A stretch of 4,572 nt of DNA from the IMG/VR virus record IMGVR_UViG_3300023487_000051, one strand, 5' to 3'. The notes below the pieces were generated by a model. That model made no database searches. It worked only from the letters and a program-made list of their open reading frames with translations, and had not been told where the DNA came from. The stretch is from a virus. Its lineage: Duplodnaviria; Heunggongvirae; Uroviricota; Caudoviricetes. The position numbers and the translations under genes are program-made. Within the stretch, counting starts at the first letter, position 1; every line of letters begins with the position of its first letter. Of the stretch, positions 727 to 4,572 are shown piece after piece.

Positions 727-1026
727 TCACATCACCCTGAAGCCGTTGCATTTACGTAAGAAATCGCAGATATAGCCCTTCATTTTTTCATGCCAATCTC
801 GATCATTCCCATTGCACCACCCATCAGGTGGAGTCCAGTTTTCTATCAGAGCAGCCATTTTCTTTGCTTTCGCCGGAGTAGCTGTTGCGGTATCGCAGTA
901 ATGACGAGTGTCAACAAACTTATCCATGCCATCGATATCAAGTACGCAAAACCATGTGTGATTCGGAATTCCTACAGGTGGTATTTGTTGCCCACGTCGG
1001 CGTTTATCAATGAGATATACACTCAC
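727..1026 (-). CDS. hypothetical phage protein, 99 aa, Cys/His/Trp-rich
   Basis: Track ORF 727..1026. Start is GTG at 1026..1024 overlapping the upstream stop (GTGA). A full-consensus Shine-Dalgarno AAGGAGGT (plus-strand 1032..1039, reverse complement) sits 6 nt upstream. Five Cys and three His. No family recognised. Confidence 0.75.
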   Translation of the reverse strand: MSVYLIDKRRRGQQIPPVGIPNHTWFCVLDIDGMDKFVDTRHYCDTATATPAKAKKMAALIENWTPPDGWCNGNDRDWHEKMKGYICDFLRKCNGFRVM

Positions 1027-1472
1027 TGGTTACCTCCTTTGCGAAGCTCTGCGGCGAACTCGTTAAGTGATATGTAGCAATCTCCAAATGTTAACGAACC
1101 GCTCGACTGCATATGCTCCATAGCCATCTCCACGCCCTGCGCCCGTACTTCAGCCAGGAAAGCATCGGTGGCTGGGGTTTCAGTAACATCATCTTCCCAT
1201 TCGCTAAACTCCTCACGACAAAAGTCATTAAATTCCTTCTCAGATTGCTTAAGCGAGGTATTTTCAGCAGCCATCTTCGCGCATTTAGCCTCAAGGTTAT
1301 CAATCGTGATTCCAGCAGAACGACACTCCCGCAACGCCGTTTCTAGTTTTGATTCAAGTTCACCGAACTTACGCACCAGATATTCAGCGTTTGTTTCGTT
1401 AACCTTTAAATCTCGGGGGATGCATTTACCTTTCAGAAAACCATCCATCTCAATTAGTGACATTTGTTTCAT
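1023..1472 (-). CDS. hypothetical coiled-coil phage protein, 149 aa (track ORF extends to a GTG at 1490; ATG at 1472 preferred)
   Basis: Track ORF 1023..1490. The ATG at 1472..1470 forms an ATGA overlap with the stop of the upstream 54-aa ORF and is preceded by a purine-rich stretch (GGAGTGGGAAGAA); the GTG at 1490 has no SD. Protein [16 protein letters not shown]...[52 protein letters not shown]...; central heptad-like region. Function unknown. Confidence 0.75.
1032..1039 (-). promoter_or_regulatory. Shine-Dalgarno AAGGAGGT for the 99-aa gene, embedded in the 3' end of the upstream CDS
   Basis: Plus strand acctcctt is the reverse complement of AAGGAGGT; 6 nt upstream of the GTG at 1026. Confidence 0.7.
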
Positions 1473-1633
1473 TTCTTCCCACTCCGCCACATTGCATTCA
1501 GATATTTGTTGTCATTAACAGAGCCGAAACTATTTCTCTTAAGCAATTCCTCTCTCGATGGCATTGGCTTTACGCGTTGGCGAATAATCATTTCTGCCGG
1601 AAGAATGCCGGGATTGTATGCAAGCCCTCTCAT
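1469..1633 (-). CDS. small hypothetical protein, 54 aa (not in ORF track)
   Basis: Hand translation: [57 protein letters not shown] at 1633..1631 overlaps the TGA of the upstream 96-aa gene (ATGA), and its own TGA at 1471..1469 overlaps the ATG of the downstream gene (ATGA). SD-like GGAGAG lies 8 nt upstream. It fills an otherwise unexplained gap of about 140 nt in a packed operon. Confidence 0.6.
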
Positions 1634-1920
1634 GATTTACTCTCCACGAACTGGTCAATAGCCATGCTAAGTGACACACCTAAAGTCTCGATATGTTGCT
1701 GAATATCCTGTAGCGTCTGCGCCTGAGATAACAGGATTTCACGGTTGCATAACTCTTTAACCAGATGCTCAAACTTGCTGTAATAACCGATACGGCTTAG
1801 TGTTTCTTTCCCTGCATTCTCGCCTTCTTTGATAATTCCTCTTTCGCTAAGAATCAGATCGTGTTTTGTTCCGGTAATAACGTATTTTCCGAGGTCGATG
1901 TTTAGCTTCATTGTTTTCAT
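1630..1920 (-). CDS. hypothetical phage protein, 96 aa (track ORF starts further upstream at 2073; ATG at 1920 preferred)
   Basis: Track ORF 1630..2073 overlaps the preceding gene by about 140 nt. The internal ATG at 1920..1918 is preceded by GAGGAA with 6-nt spacing and lies 10 nt after the upstream stop. Protein [96 protein letters not shown]. No family recognised. Confidence 0.75.
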
Positions 1921-1930
1921 TGTTAATTCC

Positions 1931-2227
1931 TCAGTCATTACTGATAGCGCCATAGCGTGAGCGGTAATTACGCAGGCGCGGGTCGATATATTCAGGGAAG
2001 TGGGTATATGTGGCTTTGCGGAATGGTCGGATTGATGTCTGGTAAATTCGCTCGCGTTCTTCTTTCTCTGCAAGCCATATACAGTGGCGAAATTCCTTTT
2101 CCTCTTTCGTTTCCTGCGGTAGAGACATTATCCGGTCGTAGTTTTTTCTGAATTTATCCAGCACCTCCGATACGGAATTGCCGGAACATCGGCGTGGGTC
2201 ATCCTCACCATACAGAGGCGCTGGCAT
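1931..2227 (-). CDS. hypothetical phage protein, 98 aa; first gene after the erf-ssb module (positional candidate for an Abc-like anti-RecBCD function, unverified)
   Basis: Track ORF 1931..2227, ATG start with SD AAGGA about 8 nt upstream, 23 nt after the ssb stop. Protein MPAPLYGEDDPRRCSGNSVSEVLDKFRKNYDRIMSLPQETKEEKEFRHCIWLAEKEERERIYQTSIRPFRKATYTHFPEYIDPRLRNYRSRYGAISND. The functional suggestion is inference from gene order (in P22, abc1/abc2 follow erf) and size only. Confidence 0.75.
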   Translation of the reverse strand: MPAPLYGEDDPRRCSGNSVSEVLDKFRKNYDRIMSLPQETKEEKEFRHCIWLAEKEERERIYQTSIRPFRKATYTHFPEYIDPRLRNYRSRYGAISND

Positions 2228-2250: not shown

Positions 2251-2634
2251 TCAGAATGGGATGGAATCGTCGTATACAGGAGTGTTCTGCTGGTTACTAC
2301 TTTGCTGCTGCGGGCCATTTCCTGAAGCTGTAAATCCAATCTTTGCATTCAGTAATTCAAGAGTAATTGATTGACCATTTTGCCCCTGATAAACATCAAC
2401 CCTGATGTTTTCTCCGGTAATTTCCACAATGCCACCTTCAACAAGAACACTACGGTAGTAATCCGCTTGCGCTCCTGGCTTGGCAAATACAACGGCGCTG
2501 TAGTTTGTCCATTCTTTCTTTTTTGTCTGGCGATCGTAATACTGAACGCCAGCACGGATGTTGAATCCGATATTTTCCCCGGCCTGAAACTCTCTTGCGG
2601 GCTTGTTTAGTCTTACAGTAATCGAATGTGCCAT
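2251..2634 (-). CDS. ssb: phage single-stranded DNA-binding protein, short form, 127 aa, C-terminal tail DDSIPF
   Basis: Track ORF 2251..2724 begins at a non-ATG codon inside erf. The ATG at 2634..2632 overlaps the erf TAA (TAATG), giving MAHSITVRLNKPAREFQAGENIGFNIRAGVQYYDRQTKKKEWTNYSAVVFAKPGAQADYYRSVLVEGGIVEITGENIRVDVYQGQNGQSITLELLNAKIGFTASGNGPQQQSSNQQNTPVYDDSIPF. The terminal acidic DD-x-IPF and the Gly/Gln-rich linker before it are the SSB signature (bacterial SSB ends DDDIPF). It sits directly downstream of erf, as in phage recombination modules. Confidence 0.75.
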   Translation of the reverse strand: MAHSITVRLNKPAREFQAGENIGFNIRAGVQYYDRQTKKKEWTNYSAVVFAKPGAQADYYRSVLVEGGIVEITGENIRVDVYQGQNGQSITLELLNAKIGFTASGNGPQQQSSNQQNTPVYDDSIPF

Positions 2635-3239
2635 TAAGCAGCAGCTCCTTCTAATTCGTCTCGTCTGATGTTGTAAACGTCCTGCGCTTTGTGCTGCTCC
2701 GGTGTGCCTTCGAGCATCTTCCACGCTTTGGCGAACGCCTGTTTAAGCTCTTCCACGGTGTTTTTCTGCAATGCTGCGTCAGTGAATGCTTTTAGAACCT
2801 GTTCAGGTGTAGGTGATAGTTTTGATTGCTTTGCTGCTGCGTTCTGCTGATGTTTATGCTCGTCGGTATCTGCATCTTTCGCATCATCAATGCCGAACAA
2901 ACCATTGAGGCAATACTTGCGTGCATAAGAGCTTGTAGCTCCCGTAACTTGTGCAGAATCCATTCCTTTCTTGCTTTCTTCCTCTCGTGCAAGGGCGGTT
3001 GCCGTATGACTGTTTTCGCCATCGGTAATAGTTGCCGTGGCTTTCACGTAATACCGATCACCAATCAACACAACTTCATCGCTGATTGATAAAAACAGGC
3101 CATTCAGTAACGGCTTAACGCCTTCAAGAATGTCTTCGCAGCTTCTGTATTTATATTTACCGAATGAGTTGTACTGATTCTTTGGCGCGTTCAGATTCTC
3201 CTGAATAGCTGCCAGTCTTGCGTAAAATTCTTTGCTCAT
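2634..3239 (-). CDS. erf: Erf-family single-strand annealing recombinase (essential recombination function protein), 201 aa
   Basis: Track ORF 2634..3269 starts at a TTG; the ATG at 3239..3237 gives MSKEFYARLAAIQENLNAPKNQYNSFGKYKYRSCEDILEGVKPLLNGLFLSISDEVVLIGDRYYVKATATITDGENSHTATALAREEESKKGMDSAQVTGATSSYARKYCLNGLFGIDDAKDADTDEHKHQQ..., which matches my recollection of the P22 Erf N-terminal annealing domain followed by a variable C-terminal domain. Stop TAA overlaps the ssb start. Confidence 0.85.
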   Translation of the reverse strand: MSKEFYARLAAIQENLNAPKNQYNSFGKYKYRSCEDILEGVKPLLNGLFLSISDEVVLIGDRYYVKATATITDGENSHTATALAREEESKKGMDSAQVTGATSSYARKYCLNGLFGIDDAKDADTDEHKHQQNAAAKQSKLSPTPEQVLKAFTDAALQKNTVEELKQAFAKAWKMLEGTPEQHKAQDVYNIRRDELEGAAA

Positions 3240-3249
3240 ATGATTGTTC

Positions 3250-3420
3250 TCAGAATGGACACGGCCCAAGGAAATAACGCTGATTTAATACTTCGACTCG
3301 GGACAAGTTAAGGCATACCCGCATTCCTTCGCGGTCGCCATTATGTCGATACCAGAGAGCTTTCTGCGTGTACATGCGCCTCTGTAACTTGCTCTCCTTC
3401 ACTGTGGTTGCAAGTGACAT
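3250..3420 (-). CDS. small basic hypothetical protein, 56 aa, immediately upstream of erf (Arf-position ORF; not in ORF track)
   Basis: Hand translation from ATG 3420..3418: MSLATTVKESKLQRRMYTQKALWYRHNGDREGMRVCLNLSRVEVLNQRYFLGPCPF. Strong SD GAAGGAGAT (plus-strand 3425..3433, reverse complement) 4 nt upstream of the ATG. Its stop lies 10 nt before the erf ATG, which itself has only a weak SD, so coupling is plausible. It overlaps the 52-aa ORF 3341..3499 by 80 nt in another frame, so only moderate confidence. Confidence 0.45.
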   Translation of the reverse strand: MSLATTVKESKLQRRMYTQKALWYRHNGDREGMRVCLNLSRVEVLNQRYFLGPCPF

Positions 3421-3499
3421 GAATATCTCCTTCGTTACCGATTAATTCTTTCATCTGACGAATGAATTCTTCGTCTGACCAGTTATCTGTAAAACTCAT
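3341..3499 (-). CDS. small acidic hypothetical protein, 52 aa, start coupled to the kil-like ORF (not in ORF track)
   Basis: Hand translation from ATG 3499..3497: MSFTDNWSDEEFIRQMKELIGNEGDIHVTCNHSEGEQVTEAHVHAESSLVST. The ATG overlaps the TGA of the Kil-like ORF (ATGA). It overlaps the 56-aa ORF in a different frame; which of the two (or both) is translated cannot be decided from sequence alone. Confidence 0.45.
   Translation of the reverse strand: MSFTDNWSDEEFIRQMKELIGNEGDIHVTCNHSEGEQVTEAHVHAESSLVST
3425..3433 (-). promoter_or_regulatory. Shine-Dalgarno GAAGGAGAT for the 56-aa Arf-position ORF, embedded in the 52-aa ORF
   Basis: Plus strand atctccttc is the reverse complement of GAAGGAGAT; 4 nt upstream of the ATG at 3420. 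Confidence 0.5.
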
Positions 3500-3648
3500 T
3501 TCCTGCGATACCATGGAAGGTTGATAGCTAATTTCATCTCTTTATTTGCTTCAAGCCACATTTTGGAATCACCAATAAATCTGGCTATTACTGCTTTGTT
3601 TTGTGCAGCACGAAGTATCTGGTGATTGATGGCTATTTCATTGCGCAT
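3496..3648 (-). CDS. kil: Kil-like small protein, 50 aa (putative host cell-division inhibitor), overlapping the 3' end of cIII (not in ORF track)
   Basis: Hand translation from ATG 3648..3646: MRNEIAINHQILRAAQNKAVIARFIGDSKMWLEANKEMKLAINLPWYRRK. SD GAGGT 7 nt upstream. The start overlaps the cIII 3' end by 16 nt in another frame, the same arrangement lambda has for cIII and kil. The segment IARFIGDSKMWLEA resembles what I recall of lambda Kil (unverified). Stop overlaps the next ATG. Confidence 0.6.
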   Translation of the reverse strand: MRNEIAINHQILRAAQNKAVIARFIGDSKMWLEANKEMKLAINLPWYRRK

Positions 3649-3764
3649 AATAAGACCTCAACTCTTTTCCATCCGTCACGTAATTTACGGGTGATTCGTT
3701 CAAGTAAAGATTCATTTAGTTGGAAGGCACCCATGCGAGCGCCTCCCGCGATTGCGTAAATCAT
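3633..3764 (-). CDS. cIII: CIII homolog (FtsH protease inhibitor, lysogeny regulator), short variant of 43 aa (not in ORF track)
   Basis: Hand translation from ATG 3764..3762: MIYAIAGGARMGAFQLNESLLERITRKLRDGWKRVEVLLCAMK. The stretch ESLLERITRKLRDGWKR is identical to the central amphipathic-helix region of lambda CIII as I recall it (MQYAIAGWPVAGCPSESLLERITRKLRDGWKRLIDILNQPGVPKNGSNTYGYPD). SD AAGGAA 7 nt upstream. C-terminus diverges and is about 11 residues shorter than lambda CIII. Confidence 0.8.
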   Translation of the reverse strand: MIYAIAGGARMGAFQLNESLLERITRKLRDGWKRVEVLLCAMK

Positions 3765-3788: not shown

Positions 3789-4572
3789 TTAGTAGGTTAT
3801 TTTTGTTGCGAATACTTCGCCTTTTACGATGGCTGTTATGATATTTTTAGCAACATCTTCTGATGCACCAACCTTGATAAGGTCAGCAAGTATTTTGTTA
3901 TTTACTTCTTTCCGGTGAGCTTTATCCTTTGCTCTACGCTCTTCTTCGTCCTTGATTCTTTTTTCTTCTGCTATTCTGGCTTGCTCTTTTGCTTCAGCCT
4001 CGCGACGGATTCGTTCAGCCTCCTCCTGTGCTTTTCTGCGTTCTGCTTCAATTGCTGCCTGCTTTTCTCTTTCAGCTCGTTCTGCTGCCTCTTTTGCTTC
4101 GCGCTGTGCTCGTTGCTCGGCTTCAATGCGTTCACGCTCTGCACGTTCCGCTGCGGCCTTAGCTTCTGCTTCTCGCCTTGCTGCTGCTTCAATTTCGGCT
4201 TTTGCCTTTGCTTCGGCTTCTGCTCTGGCTTTCTCTTCAGCTTCTCTTTTTAAGCGTTCTTCATGCTCTCGCTTTTCCTGCTCCGCTTTGAGTCTTGCCT
4301 CTTCTCTTTGGCGGTCAAATTCGCGATCCATCAAAATCGCTATTTCATGGTCAGACTCAATTTGCTTTGCGAGAGCTTCAGCTGCTGCCTTAGCTTCTTC
4401 TTCGGCTTTAATCCGCGCCTGTTCCTCTTCATAATCAGTAAGAGGCTGGCGTGCCTTGGCTTTCAGTTCATCAAGGCGATCGCGCACTGTCTTGCGGTTG
4501 GCATCAATTAGCTTTGGAATTTCCTTCAGTTCAGCAACAAGGTCTTTGCCAAGACCATCGAGATATGTTTTC
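3789..4572 (-). CDS. Glu/Arg/Lys/Ala-rich coiled-coil protein (TolA-like low complexity), 3' portion; N-terminus probably beyond the window end
   Basis: Track ORF 3789..4487 begins at a GTG with no SD. Hand translation shows the frame stays open upstream to the window edge (…KTYLDGLGKDLVAELKEIPKLIDANRKTV-RDRLDELKAKARQPLTDYEEEQARIKAEEEAKAAAEALAKQ…REAEEKARAEAEAKAKAEIEAAARREAEAKAAAERAERERIEAEQRAQREAKEAAERAEREKQAAIEAERRKAQEEAERIRREAEAKEQARIAEEKRIKDEEERRAKDKAHRKEVNNKILADLIKVGASEDVAKNIITAIVKGEVFATKITY). Same strand as the operon, 24 nt upstream of cIII. Other frames here are also open, as expected for low-complexity sequence, but only this one looks protein-like. Confidence 0.65.
   Translation of the reverse strand, partial: KTYLDGLGKDLVAELKEIPKLIDANRKTVRDRLDELKAKARQPLTDYEEEQARIKAEEEAKAAAEALAKQIESDHEIAILMDREFDRQREEARLKAEQEKREHEERLKREAEEKARAEAEAKAKAEIEAAARREAEAKAAAERAERERIEAEQRAQREAKEAAERAEREKQAAIEAERRKAQEEAERIRREAEAKEQARIAEEKRIKDEEERRAKDKAHRKEVNNKILADLIKVGASEDVAKNIITAIVKGEVFATKITY
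3910..4430. repeat. low-complexity, internally repetitive coding segment (degenerate GCN/GAR/CGN triplet repeats encoding the AE[KR]A-type motifs); approximate bounds
   Basis: Visible in sequence as recurring gcttc/tgcttc/ctgc units on the plus strand. It explains the multiple long ORFs in several frames on both strands in the track (3915..4253, 3952..4434, 3971..4192). Confidence 0.55.

What the first reader, a model, noticed from the sequence alone, without database searches (positions are those of the whole stretch)
1469..1633. Unlisted 54-aa ORF locked between two ATGA stop-start overlaps
This short gene falls below the ORF track's size cutoff but is bracketed on both sides by 4-nt ATGA overlaps with flanking genes and has its own SD. 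Without it there would be a 140-nt untranslated gap in an otherwise gap-free operon. It is a candidate small regulatory or inhibitor protein.
Basis: seen in the sequence. Interest (0 to 1): 0.45.

Follow-up and report, generated by a model that had tools for sequence, protein, structure and literature searches.

The report
Known small phage gene, DUF2737 family
The 54-codon reading frame is a real, conserved and already catalogued small phage gene (Pfam DUF2737, the same gene as P22 ORF-56, HK97 gp38 and HK620 hkaI), and its function is still unknown, so the finding is correct but ordinary.

Summary
On the minus strand, a 54-codon ORF (1633 to 1469) starts with ATG. A GGAGAG Shine-Dalgarno sequence lies 6 nt upstream. 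The ORF shares ATGA stop/start overlaps with both neighbours.

It is not a new gene. It scores 104 bits against Pfam DUF2737 (cut-off 25). It is 100% identical to phage HK446 gp28. It is the homologue of P22 ORF-56 (recorded in GenBank J02471), HK97 gp38 and HK620 hkaI. tblastn finds relatives in 694 phage records.

Substitution patterns show a protein under purifying selection. Against P22, pS is 0.72 and pN is 0.19 in this frame only.

The window is the early-left operon of an HK446-like lambdoid E. coli phage. The gene lies between the anti-RecBCD gene abc2 and a homologue of Oad2, a recently described inhibitor of the P2 OLD defence nuclease.

The family is about 50-60 residues long and basic. 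It has a variable N-terminus and a strongly conserved 27-residue core ([14 protein letters not shown]-x4-N-KYLNAMW). It also occurs in virulent Jersey-like and Kagunavirus siphophages.

I found no solved structure, no fold match and no paper giving a function. My best inference is a small protein that binds a conserved host or recombination-related target. This is not shown.

Novelty: already known. Interest is low.

The parts
1469..1633 (-). Coding sequence of a 54-aa DUF2737 family protein (6.3 kDa, pI 10.7). It is 100% identical to HK446 gp28 and is the homologue of P22 ORF-56, HK97 gp38 and HK620 hkaI.
   Evidence: (PF10930, 103.8 bits, cut-off 25)
1640..1645 (-). Shine-Dalgarno sequence GGAGAG, 6 nt upstream of the ATG. 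It lies inside the last codons of the upstream DUF5405 gene.
   Evidence: Read from the sequence. The same TGGAGAGTAAATC-ATG context appears in 9 of the 10 relatives that carry DUF5405 upstream; the tenth reads TTGAGAG.
1630..1633 (-). ATGA overlap: the start codon of the DUF2737 gene and the TGA stop of the upstream DUF5405 gene.
   Evidence: (overlap of -4 in 10/10 relatives with DUF5405 upstream)
1469..1472 (-). ATGA overlap: the TGA stop of the DUF2737 gene and the ATG of the downstream EaE/Oad2-like gene. It is preceded by the purine-rich GGAGTGGGAAGAA.
   Evidence: ATGA at the 3' end in 76/80 close relatives, and in the distant loci L086, L097, L098, L099 and L004
1487..1567 (-). Conserved core, residues 23-49 ([27 protein letters not shown]). 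R33, F36 and N42 are invariant, and N34 and S35 are over 90% conserved, across 44 diverse family members. Two short helices are predicted (27-32 and 43-51).
   Evidence: mean top-residue frequency 0.68 in the core vs 0.31 in residues 1-22
1630..1920 (-). Upstream neighbour: a 96-aa DUF5405 protein. It is an optional insertion between abc2 and the DUF2737 gene. RefSeq and PHROG 154 label it 'replication initiation protein'.
1931..2227 (-). abc2, the anti-RecBCD protein 2. It is the usual immediate upstream neighbour of the DUF2737 gene.
   Evidence: (PF11043, E=3e-61)
1023..1472 (-). Downstream neighbour: a 149-aa EaE-like protein, 56% identical to HK446 gp27 (Oad2, inhibitor of the P2 OLD nuclease). 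The N-terminal ~63 residues are nearly identical and the C-terminal part is replaced.
   Evidence: bioRxiv 10.64898/2026.07.10.737580

Best explanation
Shown: this is a genuine protein-coding gene of the lambdoid early-left (PL) operon. It encodes a 54-residue, strongly basic DUF2737 protein. It has its own Shine-Dalgarno sequence and stop/start overlaps that are compatible with translational coupling to both neighbours. Selection acts on the amino-acid sequence, above all on a 27-residue core predicted to form two short helices joined by a conserved NSF-x-x-x-(N/D)-x-N turn. Inferred: the protein is a small, non-enzymatic binding factor made early in infection. Its core docks onto a conserved target, either a host protein or a component of the recombination/RecBCD axis, and modulates it. 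This would resemble the other small products of the operon (Kil, CIII, Ral, Abc2, Gp33, Oad2). I favour a conserved target over a variable defence system for two reasons. The core is nearly unchanged between temperate lambdoid phages and virulent Jersey-like/Kagunavirus siphophages. By contrast, the neighbouring anti-OLD gene is a fast-changing mosaic. The variable N-terminus and the Lys-rich tail are probably not the specificity determinants. The tail codons also double as the ribosome-binding region of the next gene. The confidence of 0.5 is for the whole statement: about 0.95 that it is a real translated gene, and about 0.4 that it acts as a protein-binding modulator.
For: Gene reality: PF10930 at 103.8 bits and PHROG 1117. 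It is annotated in RefSeq phages and in P22 record J02471. Codon-position bias of variable sites is 7/8/26, with pooled pN/pS 0.26. Window vs P22 gives pS 0.72 vs pN 0.185, and against Jerseyvirus wksl3 the core gives pS 0.88 vs pN 0.26; the other frames show no such contrast. The frame is intact in 77/80 relatives. Family shape: an exhaustive profile search of 1.84 billion representatives returned 90 clusters, mostly 50-60 aa, with a shared core. Position: abc2 lies within 1.5 kb upstream in 73/80 loci and an EaE/Oad2-like gene lies downstream in 77/80. The same slot, after an Abc2-like gene, holds in distant prophages whose recombinase is Erf, Sak4-like or Rad52-like. Abc2 and long-form DUF2737 have near-equal record counts in the phage collection, 224 vs 223, and equal counts in Stx phages. 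Neighbours with tested functions: HK446 gp27 is Oad2 (anti-OLD) and gp33 triggers OLD. No Cys or His, pI 10.7, two short predicted helices, so an enzyme is unlikely. No RNA family hit and no unusual RNA fold.
Against: No experiment or paper addresses the protein; searches for DUF2737 and PF10930 gave nothing. The OLD study found gp27 alone sufficient and does not mention gp28. Structure predictions are only moderately confident (pLDDT 65 and 70), and there is no fold match in PDB or BFVD, so 'helical hairpin' is tentative. The linkage to abc2 may reflect inherited gene order rather than shared function. Seven of 80 close relatives have a Rec module without abc2. L097 has a non-Abc2 gene upstream, L098 carries the gene after replication genes, and the virulent siphophage wksl3 has it among small early genes, with no abc2 among the annotated genes in the 6-kb stretch viewed. 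High positive charge would suit nucleic-acid binding equally well.
Confidence: 0.5

Rival explanations
1. It is a small basic nucleic-acid-binding protein. It could be a DNA- or RNA-binding accessory factor of the phage recombination module (in the way Arf and Abc1 assist Erf) or a small transcriptional or translational regulator, rather than a binder of a host protein.
For: pI 10.7 and net charge +7; the family median is +4. It sits at the distal edge of the Rec module in most lambdoid genomes. Its layout, a short beta-prone basic stretch followed by two helices, loosely recalls ribbon-helix-helix repressors such as P22 Arc; the N-terminal segment has a high beta-type hydrophobic moment of 0.71.
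Against: Profile-profile comparison with Arc/Mnt gave probability 0.1 with one aligned column. No RHH or HTH Pfam family appears even at E<=10 across 22 members. AlphaFold does not predict a strand. The N-terminal segment that would read DNA in an RHH is the least conserved part. The gene also occurs outside any Rec module.
Confidence: 0.25
2. The peptide itself does not matter. The ORF exists to keep ribosomes on the message and deliver them to the downstream gene, acting as a translational-coupling spacer.
For: The 3' ATGA junction with a purine-rich run (GGGAAGAAATGA) is kept in 76/80 relatives and in distant members with unrelated downstream genes. The C-terminal tail changes with the downstream module.
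Against: A spacer would not hold a 27-residue amino-acid core constant while synonymous sites saturate: pS 0.72-0.88 vs pN 0.19-0.26. R33, F36 and N42 are invariant across 44 diverse members. In most relatives the gene is not overlapped at its 5' end.
Confidence: 0.03
3. The functional element is non-coding: a transcription terminator (annotated 'tL3' inside hkaI in HK620) or an antisense product of the plus-strand ORFs 1457-1702 and 1464-1661.
For: The HK620 record places a 13-nt 'tL3' terminator feature inside hkaI. Alleles encoding NSFPS contain an AT-rich hairpin, GAATT...AATTCTTTT. Two plus-strand ORFs of 81 and 65 codons overlap the region.
Against: The window's allele (NSFGS) lacks that hairpin. 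The scan finds no minus-strand terminator here. The RNA fold is no more stable than shuffles, z=+1.28. There is no Rfam hit. The antisense frames show no coding-type substitution contrast as strong as the sense frame.
Confidence: 0.02

Closest known systems
Pfam PF10930 (DUF2737) / PHROG 1117: HK446 gp28, HK97 gp38, HK620 HkaI, P22 ORF-56, epsilon34 gp32, Jerseyvirus wksl3 gp11
   Same: It is a full-length match (residues 1-52 of 53 profile positions, 103.8 bits). It is 100% identical to HK446 and HK544, 96% to Sf101 and the Stx-phage copies, and 74% to P22 ORF-56. Size, conserved core, and the operon slot after abc2 and before an EaE-like gene are all the same.
   Different: Nothing of substance differs. 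The window belongs to the minority (10/80) with a DUF5405 gene inserted between abc2 and this gene, which creates the 5' ATGA overlap. The siphophage subfamily shares only the C-terminal core.
Small effector proteins of the lambdoid early-left operon with tested functions: Kil (FtsZ inhibitor), CIII (FtsH inhibitor), Ral, Abc2 (binds RecC), HK75/HK446 Gp33 (OLD trigger), HK446 gp27 = Oad2 (binds and inhibits the P2 OLD nuclease)
   Same: Same operon and same size class. All are non-enzymatic and dispensable-looking, and they are expressed from the N-antiterminated PL transcript. The two flanking functional genes, abc2 and the oad2 homologue, deal with RecBCD and with a defence that senses RecBCD inhibition.
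   Different: There is no sequence or profile similarity to any of them. Unlike Oad2/EaE, which is mosaic and changes quickly, DUF2737 has a nearly frozen core. No target is known.
Ribbon-helix-helix repressors (P22 Arc/Mnt)
   Same: About 53 residues and basic. The order 'short extended segment, helix, G/S/N-containing turn, helix' and a local string resemblance (Arc GRSVNSEIYQRVMESFKK vs [19 protein letters not shown]) match. This resemblance was noticed by eye.
   Different: hhalign probability is 0.1. There is no Pfam RHH hit. Helix A would be about 5 residues too short, no strand is predicted, and the putative strand region is not conserved.
RPEL repeat (PF02755, eukaryotic G-actin-binding motif RPxxxEL)
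   Same: The core [12 protein letters not shown] resembles what I recall of the RPEL consensus (roughly RPsreeLverniL; recalled from memory, not retrieved here). Three of 22 family members give weak Pfam hits, best E=0.017.
   Different: The window protein itself gives no hit at E<=10, and the three members that do reach only E=0.017 at best, which I take to be below the family's curated cut-off (that cut-off was not displayed). The defining Arg of 'RP' is Met or Phe in DUF2737. 'P-S-x-x-E' is a generic helix N-cap. This is a lead only.

Membership tests
DUF2737 (Pfam PF10930) | Whole-protein score above the curated gathering threshold, covering the model end to end | tested here: met
   103.8 bits against a cut-off of 25, E=4.2e-30, residues 1-52 on profile positions 1-52 of 53. 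All 22 members of alignment A1 also match.
DUF2737 (Pfam PF10930) | Conserved core R-N-S-F ... N ... (K/R)(Y/H)(L/I) preceded by P-x-P-(S/T)-R-E-E-L, in a protein of about 50-60 residues | tested here: met
   The window has [24 protein letters not shown]33, F36 and N42 are invariant, and N34 and S35 are over 90% conserved, in 44 diverse members.
DUF2737 (Pfam PF10930) | Encoded by phages or prophages of Enterobacterales, in early operons | tested here: met
   There are 694 phage records, almost all Salmonella or Escherichia phages. The window is 95-97% identical in DNA to PhiR12, HK446 and other lambdoid phages and lies in the PL operon by comparison with HK446, HK620 and P22.
PHROG 1117 (unknown function) | Profile match over the full length | tested here: met
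   E=2e-38, positions 1-54 of 54.
Translationally coupled gene (stop/start overlap) | Overlapping stop and start codons with neighbours on the same strand, and an SD within the upstream coding sequence | tested here: met
   ATGA at 1630-1633 and 1469-1472, and GGAGAG at 1645-1640. The 3' overlap is conserved in 76/80 relatives.
Translationally coupled gene (stop/start overlap) | Translation of the downstream gene depends on translation of the upstream one | not testable with these tools
   This needs reporter fusions with premature stops in the upstream frame.
Ribbon-helix-helix (Arc/Mnt-like) | Detectable profile similarity to RHH families, and an N-terminal beta-strand followed by two helices | tested here: not met
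RPEL repeat (PF02755) | Score above the gathering threshold and the RPxxxEL signature with its Arg | tested here: not met
   Only 3 of 22 members hit, best E=0.017. The window protein gives no hit. The position of the signature Arg is Met (or Phe in siphophage members).
Anti-defence protein (functional class, e.g. Oad2-like anti-OLD) | Demonstrated relief of a defence system, or homology to a protein with that activity | tested here: not met
   There is no homology to Oad2. In the HK446 library screen gp27 alone was sufficient, and gp28 is not reported. Location in an anti-defence hotspot is circumstantial only.

The most novel reading that the evidence does not exclude
DUF2737 is a functional partner of the anti-RecBCD module. 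It would either be a cofactor that helps Abc2 reprogramme RecBCD, or a second-layer counter-defence that silences host guards which fire when RecBCD is inhibited (retron Ec48/Se72-type systems, OLD-like nucleases). This would explain why it keeps its place next to abc2-like genes while recombinases and downstream genes are swapped. Its presence in virulent siphophages would then mark an activity useful to any phage with exposed DNA ends.
Probability: 0.15. Interest if true: 0.6.

Novelty: already known. Interest (0 to 1): 0.18.

Why it matters
As a gene call it adds nothing new. The family is in Pfam and PHROGs, RefSeq annotates it, and GenBank record J02471 (the P22 erf/abc sequence) already lists ORF-56 as 'putative'. 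The practical point is that ORF tracks with a 60-codon cut-off, and older annotations such as UTI89 (which lists hkaJ and hkaH but not hkaI), miss it.

The family itself remains a reasonable experimental target. It is a 6-kDa protein with a nearly frozen 27-residue core, shared by temperate lambdoid and virulent Salmonella/E. coli siphophages. It sits between an anti-RecBCD gene and an anti-OLD gene, in a region recently proposed to be a reservoir of RecBCD manipulators and anti-immunity proteins. Finding its target could add one more small host-directed phage effector, but nothing in the present evidence predicts a surprising mechanism.

Tried and rejected
1. Ribbon-helix-helix repressor idea, from a by-eye resemblance to P22 Arc. 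Rejected: hhalign probability 0.1, no RHH Pfam hits, and no strand in the models.

3. NCBIfam scan: no family for this protein or eight neighbours.

4. Literature. 'DUF2737' and 'PF10930' gave zero papers. 'phrog_1117' gave one irrelevant paper. 'HK97 gp38' gave unrelated gp38 proteins. 'orf56/P22/abc2' gave only genome tables. 'hkaI/hkaJ/hkaH' led to a UTI89 filamentation screen in which a fragment spanning cIII to hkaH scored; the authors attribute this to kil2. The supplements of the Silas et al. preprint have no entry for this protein. The 2025 Nat Commun supplements list DUF2737 only as a neighbour in a gene table. Oad1 is a vibriophage protein and is unrelated.

5. Non-coding explanations: no Rfam hit, no minus-strand terminator or promoter, and RNA fold z=+1.28. 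The HK620 'tL3' hairpin is allele-specific and absent from the window.

6. Obligate coupling to abc2. Rejected as a rule: 7/80 close relatives and several distant loci lack abc2.

7. The genome-contig scan returned only 9 loci because of a strict pattern. It was useful for context but not for statistics.

Full report
**1. What is in the sequence**

All long ORFs of the window run on the minus strand. Read in that direction, the window carries these genes:
- a 232-aa coiled-coil protein (3789-4487)
- a 43-aa ORF in the position of CIII (3633-3764)
- a 50-aa ORF in the position of Kil (3496-3648)
- a 57-aa ORF (3341-3514)
- Erf (2634-3239, PF04404)
- an SSB-like protein (2251-2634, PHROG 44)
- Abc2 (1931-2227, PF11043, E=3e-61)
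- a 96-aa DUF5405 protein (1630-1920)
- the 54-codon ORF of the finding (1469-1633)
- a 149-aa EaE-like protein (1023-1472)
- a 99-aa DUF7739 protein (727-1026)
- the start of an Ea22-like gene

This is the early-left (PL) operon of a lambdoid phage. The DNA is 95-97% identical to Escherichia phages PhiR12, HK446, HK106, HK620 and others and to prophages in many E. coli genomes.

**2. Check of the observation**

- The ORF starts at ATG 1633-1631 and ends at TGA 1471-1469.
- The plus-strand 'tcat' at 1630-1633 and at 1469-1472 are the two ATGA overlaps.
- GGAGAG lies at 1645-1640, 6 nt before the ATG.
- Without the ORF the gap would be 157 nt, not 140.

Two details temper the 'locked' picture. 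First, the 5' ATGA is simply Met-Arg (ATG-AGA) and is present in all 80 close relatives. It serves as a stop for the upstream gene only where DUF5405 is inserted (10/80). In 66/80 relatives abc2 ends 10 nt upstream instead (TGAGGAATTTACC-ATG). Second, overlaps are common throughout this operon, so the ATGA pair is not in itself remarkable.

**3. Is it a gene?**

Yes, on several independent grounds.
- The peptide matches Pfam DUF2737 end to end, at 103.8 bits against a cut-off of 25, and PHROG 1117 at E=2e-38.
- It is 100% identical to HK446 gp28 and HK544. RefSeq annotates it as 'DUF2737 family protein' in HK446, HK620 (hkaI), Sf101, epsilon34 and others.
- In P22 it is orf56. GenBank J02471, the P22 erf/abc sequence record, already lists it as 'ORF-56; putative'.
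- Among 49 distinct 165-nt alleles, variable sites fall 7/8/26 by codon position, and pooled pN/pS is 0.26.
- Against P22 (70% nucleotide identity), pS is 0.72 and pN is 0.185 in this frame. The other two sense frames have pN above pS (0.30 vs 0.27 and 0.32 vs 0.17), and so does one antisense frame. The two other antisense frames show only a much weaker excess of pS.
- Against a Jerseyvirus copy, the core gives pS 0.88 and pN 0.26.

The frame is intact in 77/80 IMG/VR relatives. The only disruption is one nonsense allele (E29 to TAA) shared by three identical contigs.

There is no sign of an RNA element: no Rfam hit, no minus-strand terminator, and a fold z-score of +1.28. HK620's record marks a 'tL3' terminator inside hkaI. 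The AT-rich hairpin behind it exists only in alleles encoding NSFPS and is absent from the window.

**4. The family**

A word-indexed search found 173 close clusters. All that carry a name are called 'DUF2737 family protein'. A second search seeded with Jerseyvirus wksl3 gp11 found 60 more clusters. An exhaustive profile search of 1.84 billion representatives found only 90 clusters at 50% identity. Most are 50-60 residues long, and the longer ones look like read-through gene calls.

tblastn finds the family in 694 phage records. About 223 of these have the long lambdoid form. The rest, mainly Salmonella Jersey-like phages and E. coli Kagunavirus siphophages, match only residues 23-54.

The alignment of 44 diverse members shows three regions:
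- a variable N-terminus (mean top-residue frequency 0.31)
- a conserved core at residues 23-49 (0.68), with R33, F36 and N42 invariant and N34 and S35 over 90% conserved
- a variable Lys-rich tail

**5. Genomic context**

In close relatives, abc2 lies within 1.5 kb upstream in 73/80 loci and an EaE-like gene follows in 77/80. The remaining 7 have a different Rec module (303-aa, 160-aa and 104-aa genes) without abc2.

Distant members (about 35-55% identity) keep the same slot. The order is recombinase, SSB, an Abc2-like ~100-aa gene, then DUF2737, even though the recombinase is Erf, a Sak4-like ATPase or Rad52-like.

There are exceptions:
- An Atlantibacter prophage has a non-Abc2 gene upstream.
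- A Superficieibacter prophage carries the gene after replication genes.
- The virulent siphophage wksl3 carries it among small genes near a NinH-like gene.

In the phage collection, Abc2 occurs in 224 full-length records and long-form DUF2737 in 223, with identical counts in Stx2a (51) and Stx1a (15) phages. This linkage is strong but not obligate, and it could be inherited gene order.

The 3' junction GAAGAAATGA is conserved even where the downstream gene is unrelated. The C-terminal tail switches with the downstream module: RSGKK* before EaE-like genes, and RKGG(N/K)Q* before DUF7739.

**6. What the literature adds**

I found no paper in the searched library that names the family or reports a function for it.

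The most relevant work is a 2026 preprint on the P2 OLD nuclease (10.64898/2026.07.10.737580). In HK75 and HK446, Gp33 triggers OLD. This is the ~56-aa product of the gene after kil. HK446 gp27, the EaE-related gene immediately downstream of the DUF2737 gene gp28, is Oad2, a direct OLD inhibitor that is sufficient on its own. The authors call the region a hotspot for RecBCD manipulators and anti-immunity genes. They do not mention gp28.

The window carries a Gp33 homologue (86% identity). It also carries an Oad2 homologue at 56% identity, with the N-terminal 63 residues nearly identical and the C-terminus replaced.

Other papers agree that the functions of P22 Abc1 and Arf are unknown (PMC9836394, PMC12315714). 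In the Silas et al. preprint (10.1101/2023.04.06.535777), expression of P22 abc1 triggered programmed cell death that mapped to a P4 satellite prophage.

**7. Mechanism**

Shown: this is a translated-looking small basic protein under purifying selection, with junctions compatible with translational coupling.

Inferred: it is a non-enzymatic binding factor whose conserved helix-turn-helix-shaped core docks on a conserved target. I favour a conserved host or recombination-axis target over a variable defence system. The core is almost unchanged between temperate and virulent phages, whereas the adjacent anti-OLD gene is a fast-changing mosaic.

A nucleic-acid-binding role is the main rival. The ribbon-helix-helix version of it failed its test. 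A pure 'coupling spacer' and a non-coding element are both unlikely. A weak resemblance to the actin-binding RPEL motif (3/22 members, best E=0.017) is noted only as a lead.

**8. Verdict**

Novelty: already known. Interest is low.

Noticed in passing
window 3341-3499 (minus strand; within ORF 3341-3514): This is a homologue (86% identity over 51 residues) of HK446/HK75 Gp33. The 2026 OLD preprint reports Gp33 as sufficient to trigger the P2 OLD abortive-infection nuclease and as a possible new RecBCD manipulator.
   Followed up: partly
window 1023-1472 (minus strand): The 149-aa EaE-like gene is 56% identical to HK446 gp27 (Oad2, anti-OLD). The first ~63 residues are about 95% identical, and the C-terminal part is replaced and 26 residues shorter. 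HK75's 54%-identical homologue is reported not to inhibit OLD, so this copy's activity is uncertain.
   Followed up: partly
window 1023-1040 and 1469-1490; proteins P0008, P0024, P0182; IMG/VR loci: The C-terminal tail of DUF2737 switches with the downstream module: RSGKK* before EaE-like genes, and RKGG(N/K)Q* before DUF7739. The same AAAGGAGGTAACCAGTGA linker ends the window's 149-aa gene. These SD-containing linkers look like the recombination joints of the lambdoid mosaic.
   Followed up: partly
L103 (HK620) 1944-1956, equivalent to about window 1528-1540: The HK620 record annotates a 'tL3' terminator inside hkaI. The underlying AT-rich hairpin (GAATT..AATTCTTTT) exists only in alleles encoding NSFPS and is absent from the window's NSFGS allele.
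   Followed up: yes
L055, L068, L078 (IMG/VR contigs), codon 29 of the DUF2737 gene: A single nonsense allele (GAA to TAA, E29*) is shared by three contigs that are identical over the roughly 230 nt inspected. It is the only frame disruption among 80 close relatives, and abc2 upstream is intact. This looks like ordinary prophage decay.
   Followed up: yes
window 1630-1920 (minus strand): The DUF5405 gene is an optional insertion between abc2 and the DUF2737 gene (10/80 relatives). It is also present, 70% identical, in a Pseudocitrobacter prophage whose DUF2737 is only 54% identical. RefSeq and PHROG 154 call it 'replication initiation protein', which looks like a propagated label with no support here.
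   Followed up: partly
L098 3708-4162 (Superficieibacter electus prophage) and L004 (Jerseyvirus wksl3) 2926-3096: DUF2737 also occurs outside the Rec module. In one prophage it lies after replication genes. In the virulent siphophage it lies among small overlapping genes next to a NinH-like gene. It therefore behaves as a portable small gene.
   Followed up: partly
E. coli UTI89 prophage (PMC6206680, Table 2): The original UTI89 annotation lists hkaJ (abc2) and hkaH but no hkaI between them. The fragment spanning cIII to hkaH caused filamentation in an expression screen, which the authors attribute to kil2.
   Followed up: no
DUF2737 core, window 1526-1561 (residues 25-36): [12 protein letters not shown] resembles what I recall of the eukaryotic RPEL actin-binding motif. 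Three of 22 family members give weak Pfam RPEL hits (best E=0.017). This is probably a generic helix N-cap plus chance.
   Followed up: partly
window 3789-4487 (minus strand): This 232-aa Glu/Lys/Ala-rich coiled-coil protein at the head of the operon is annotated in E. coli genomes either as 'coiled-coil domain-containing protein' or, dubiously, as 'cell envelope biogenesis protein TolA'. It has no NCBIfam hit; it was not scanned against Pfam.
   Followed up: no
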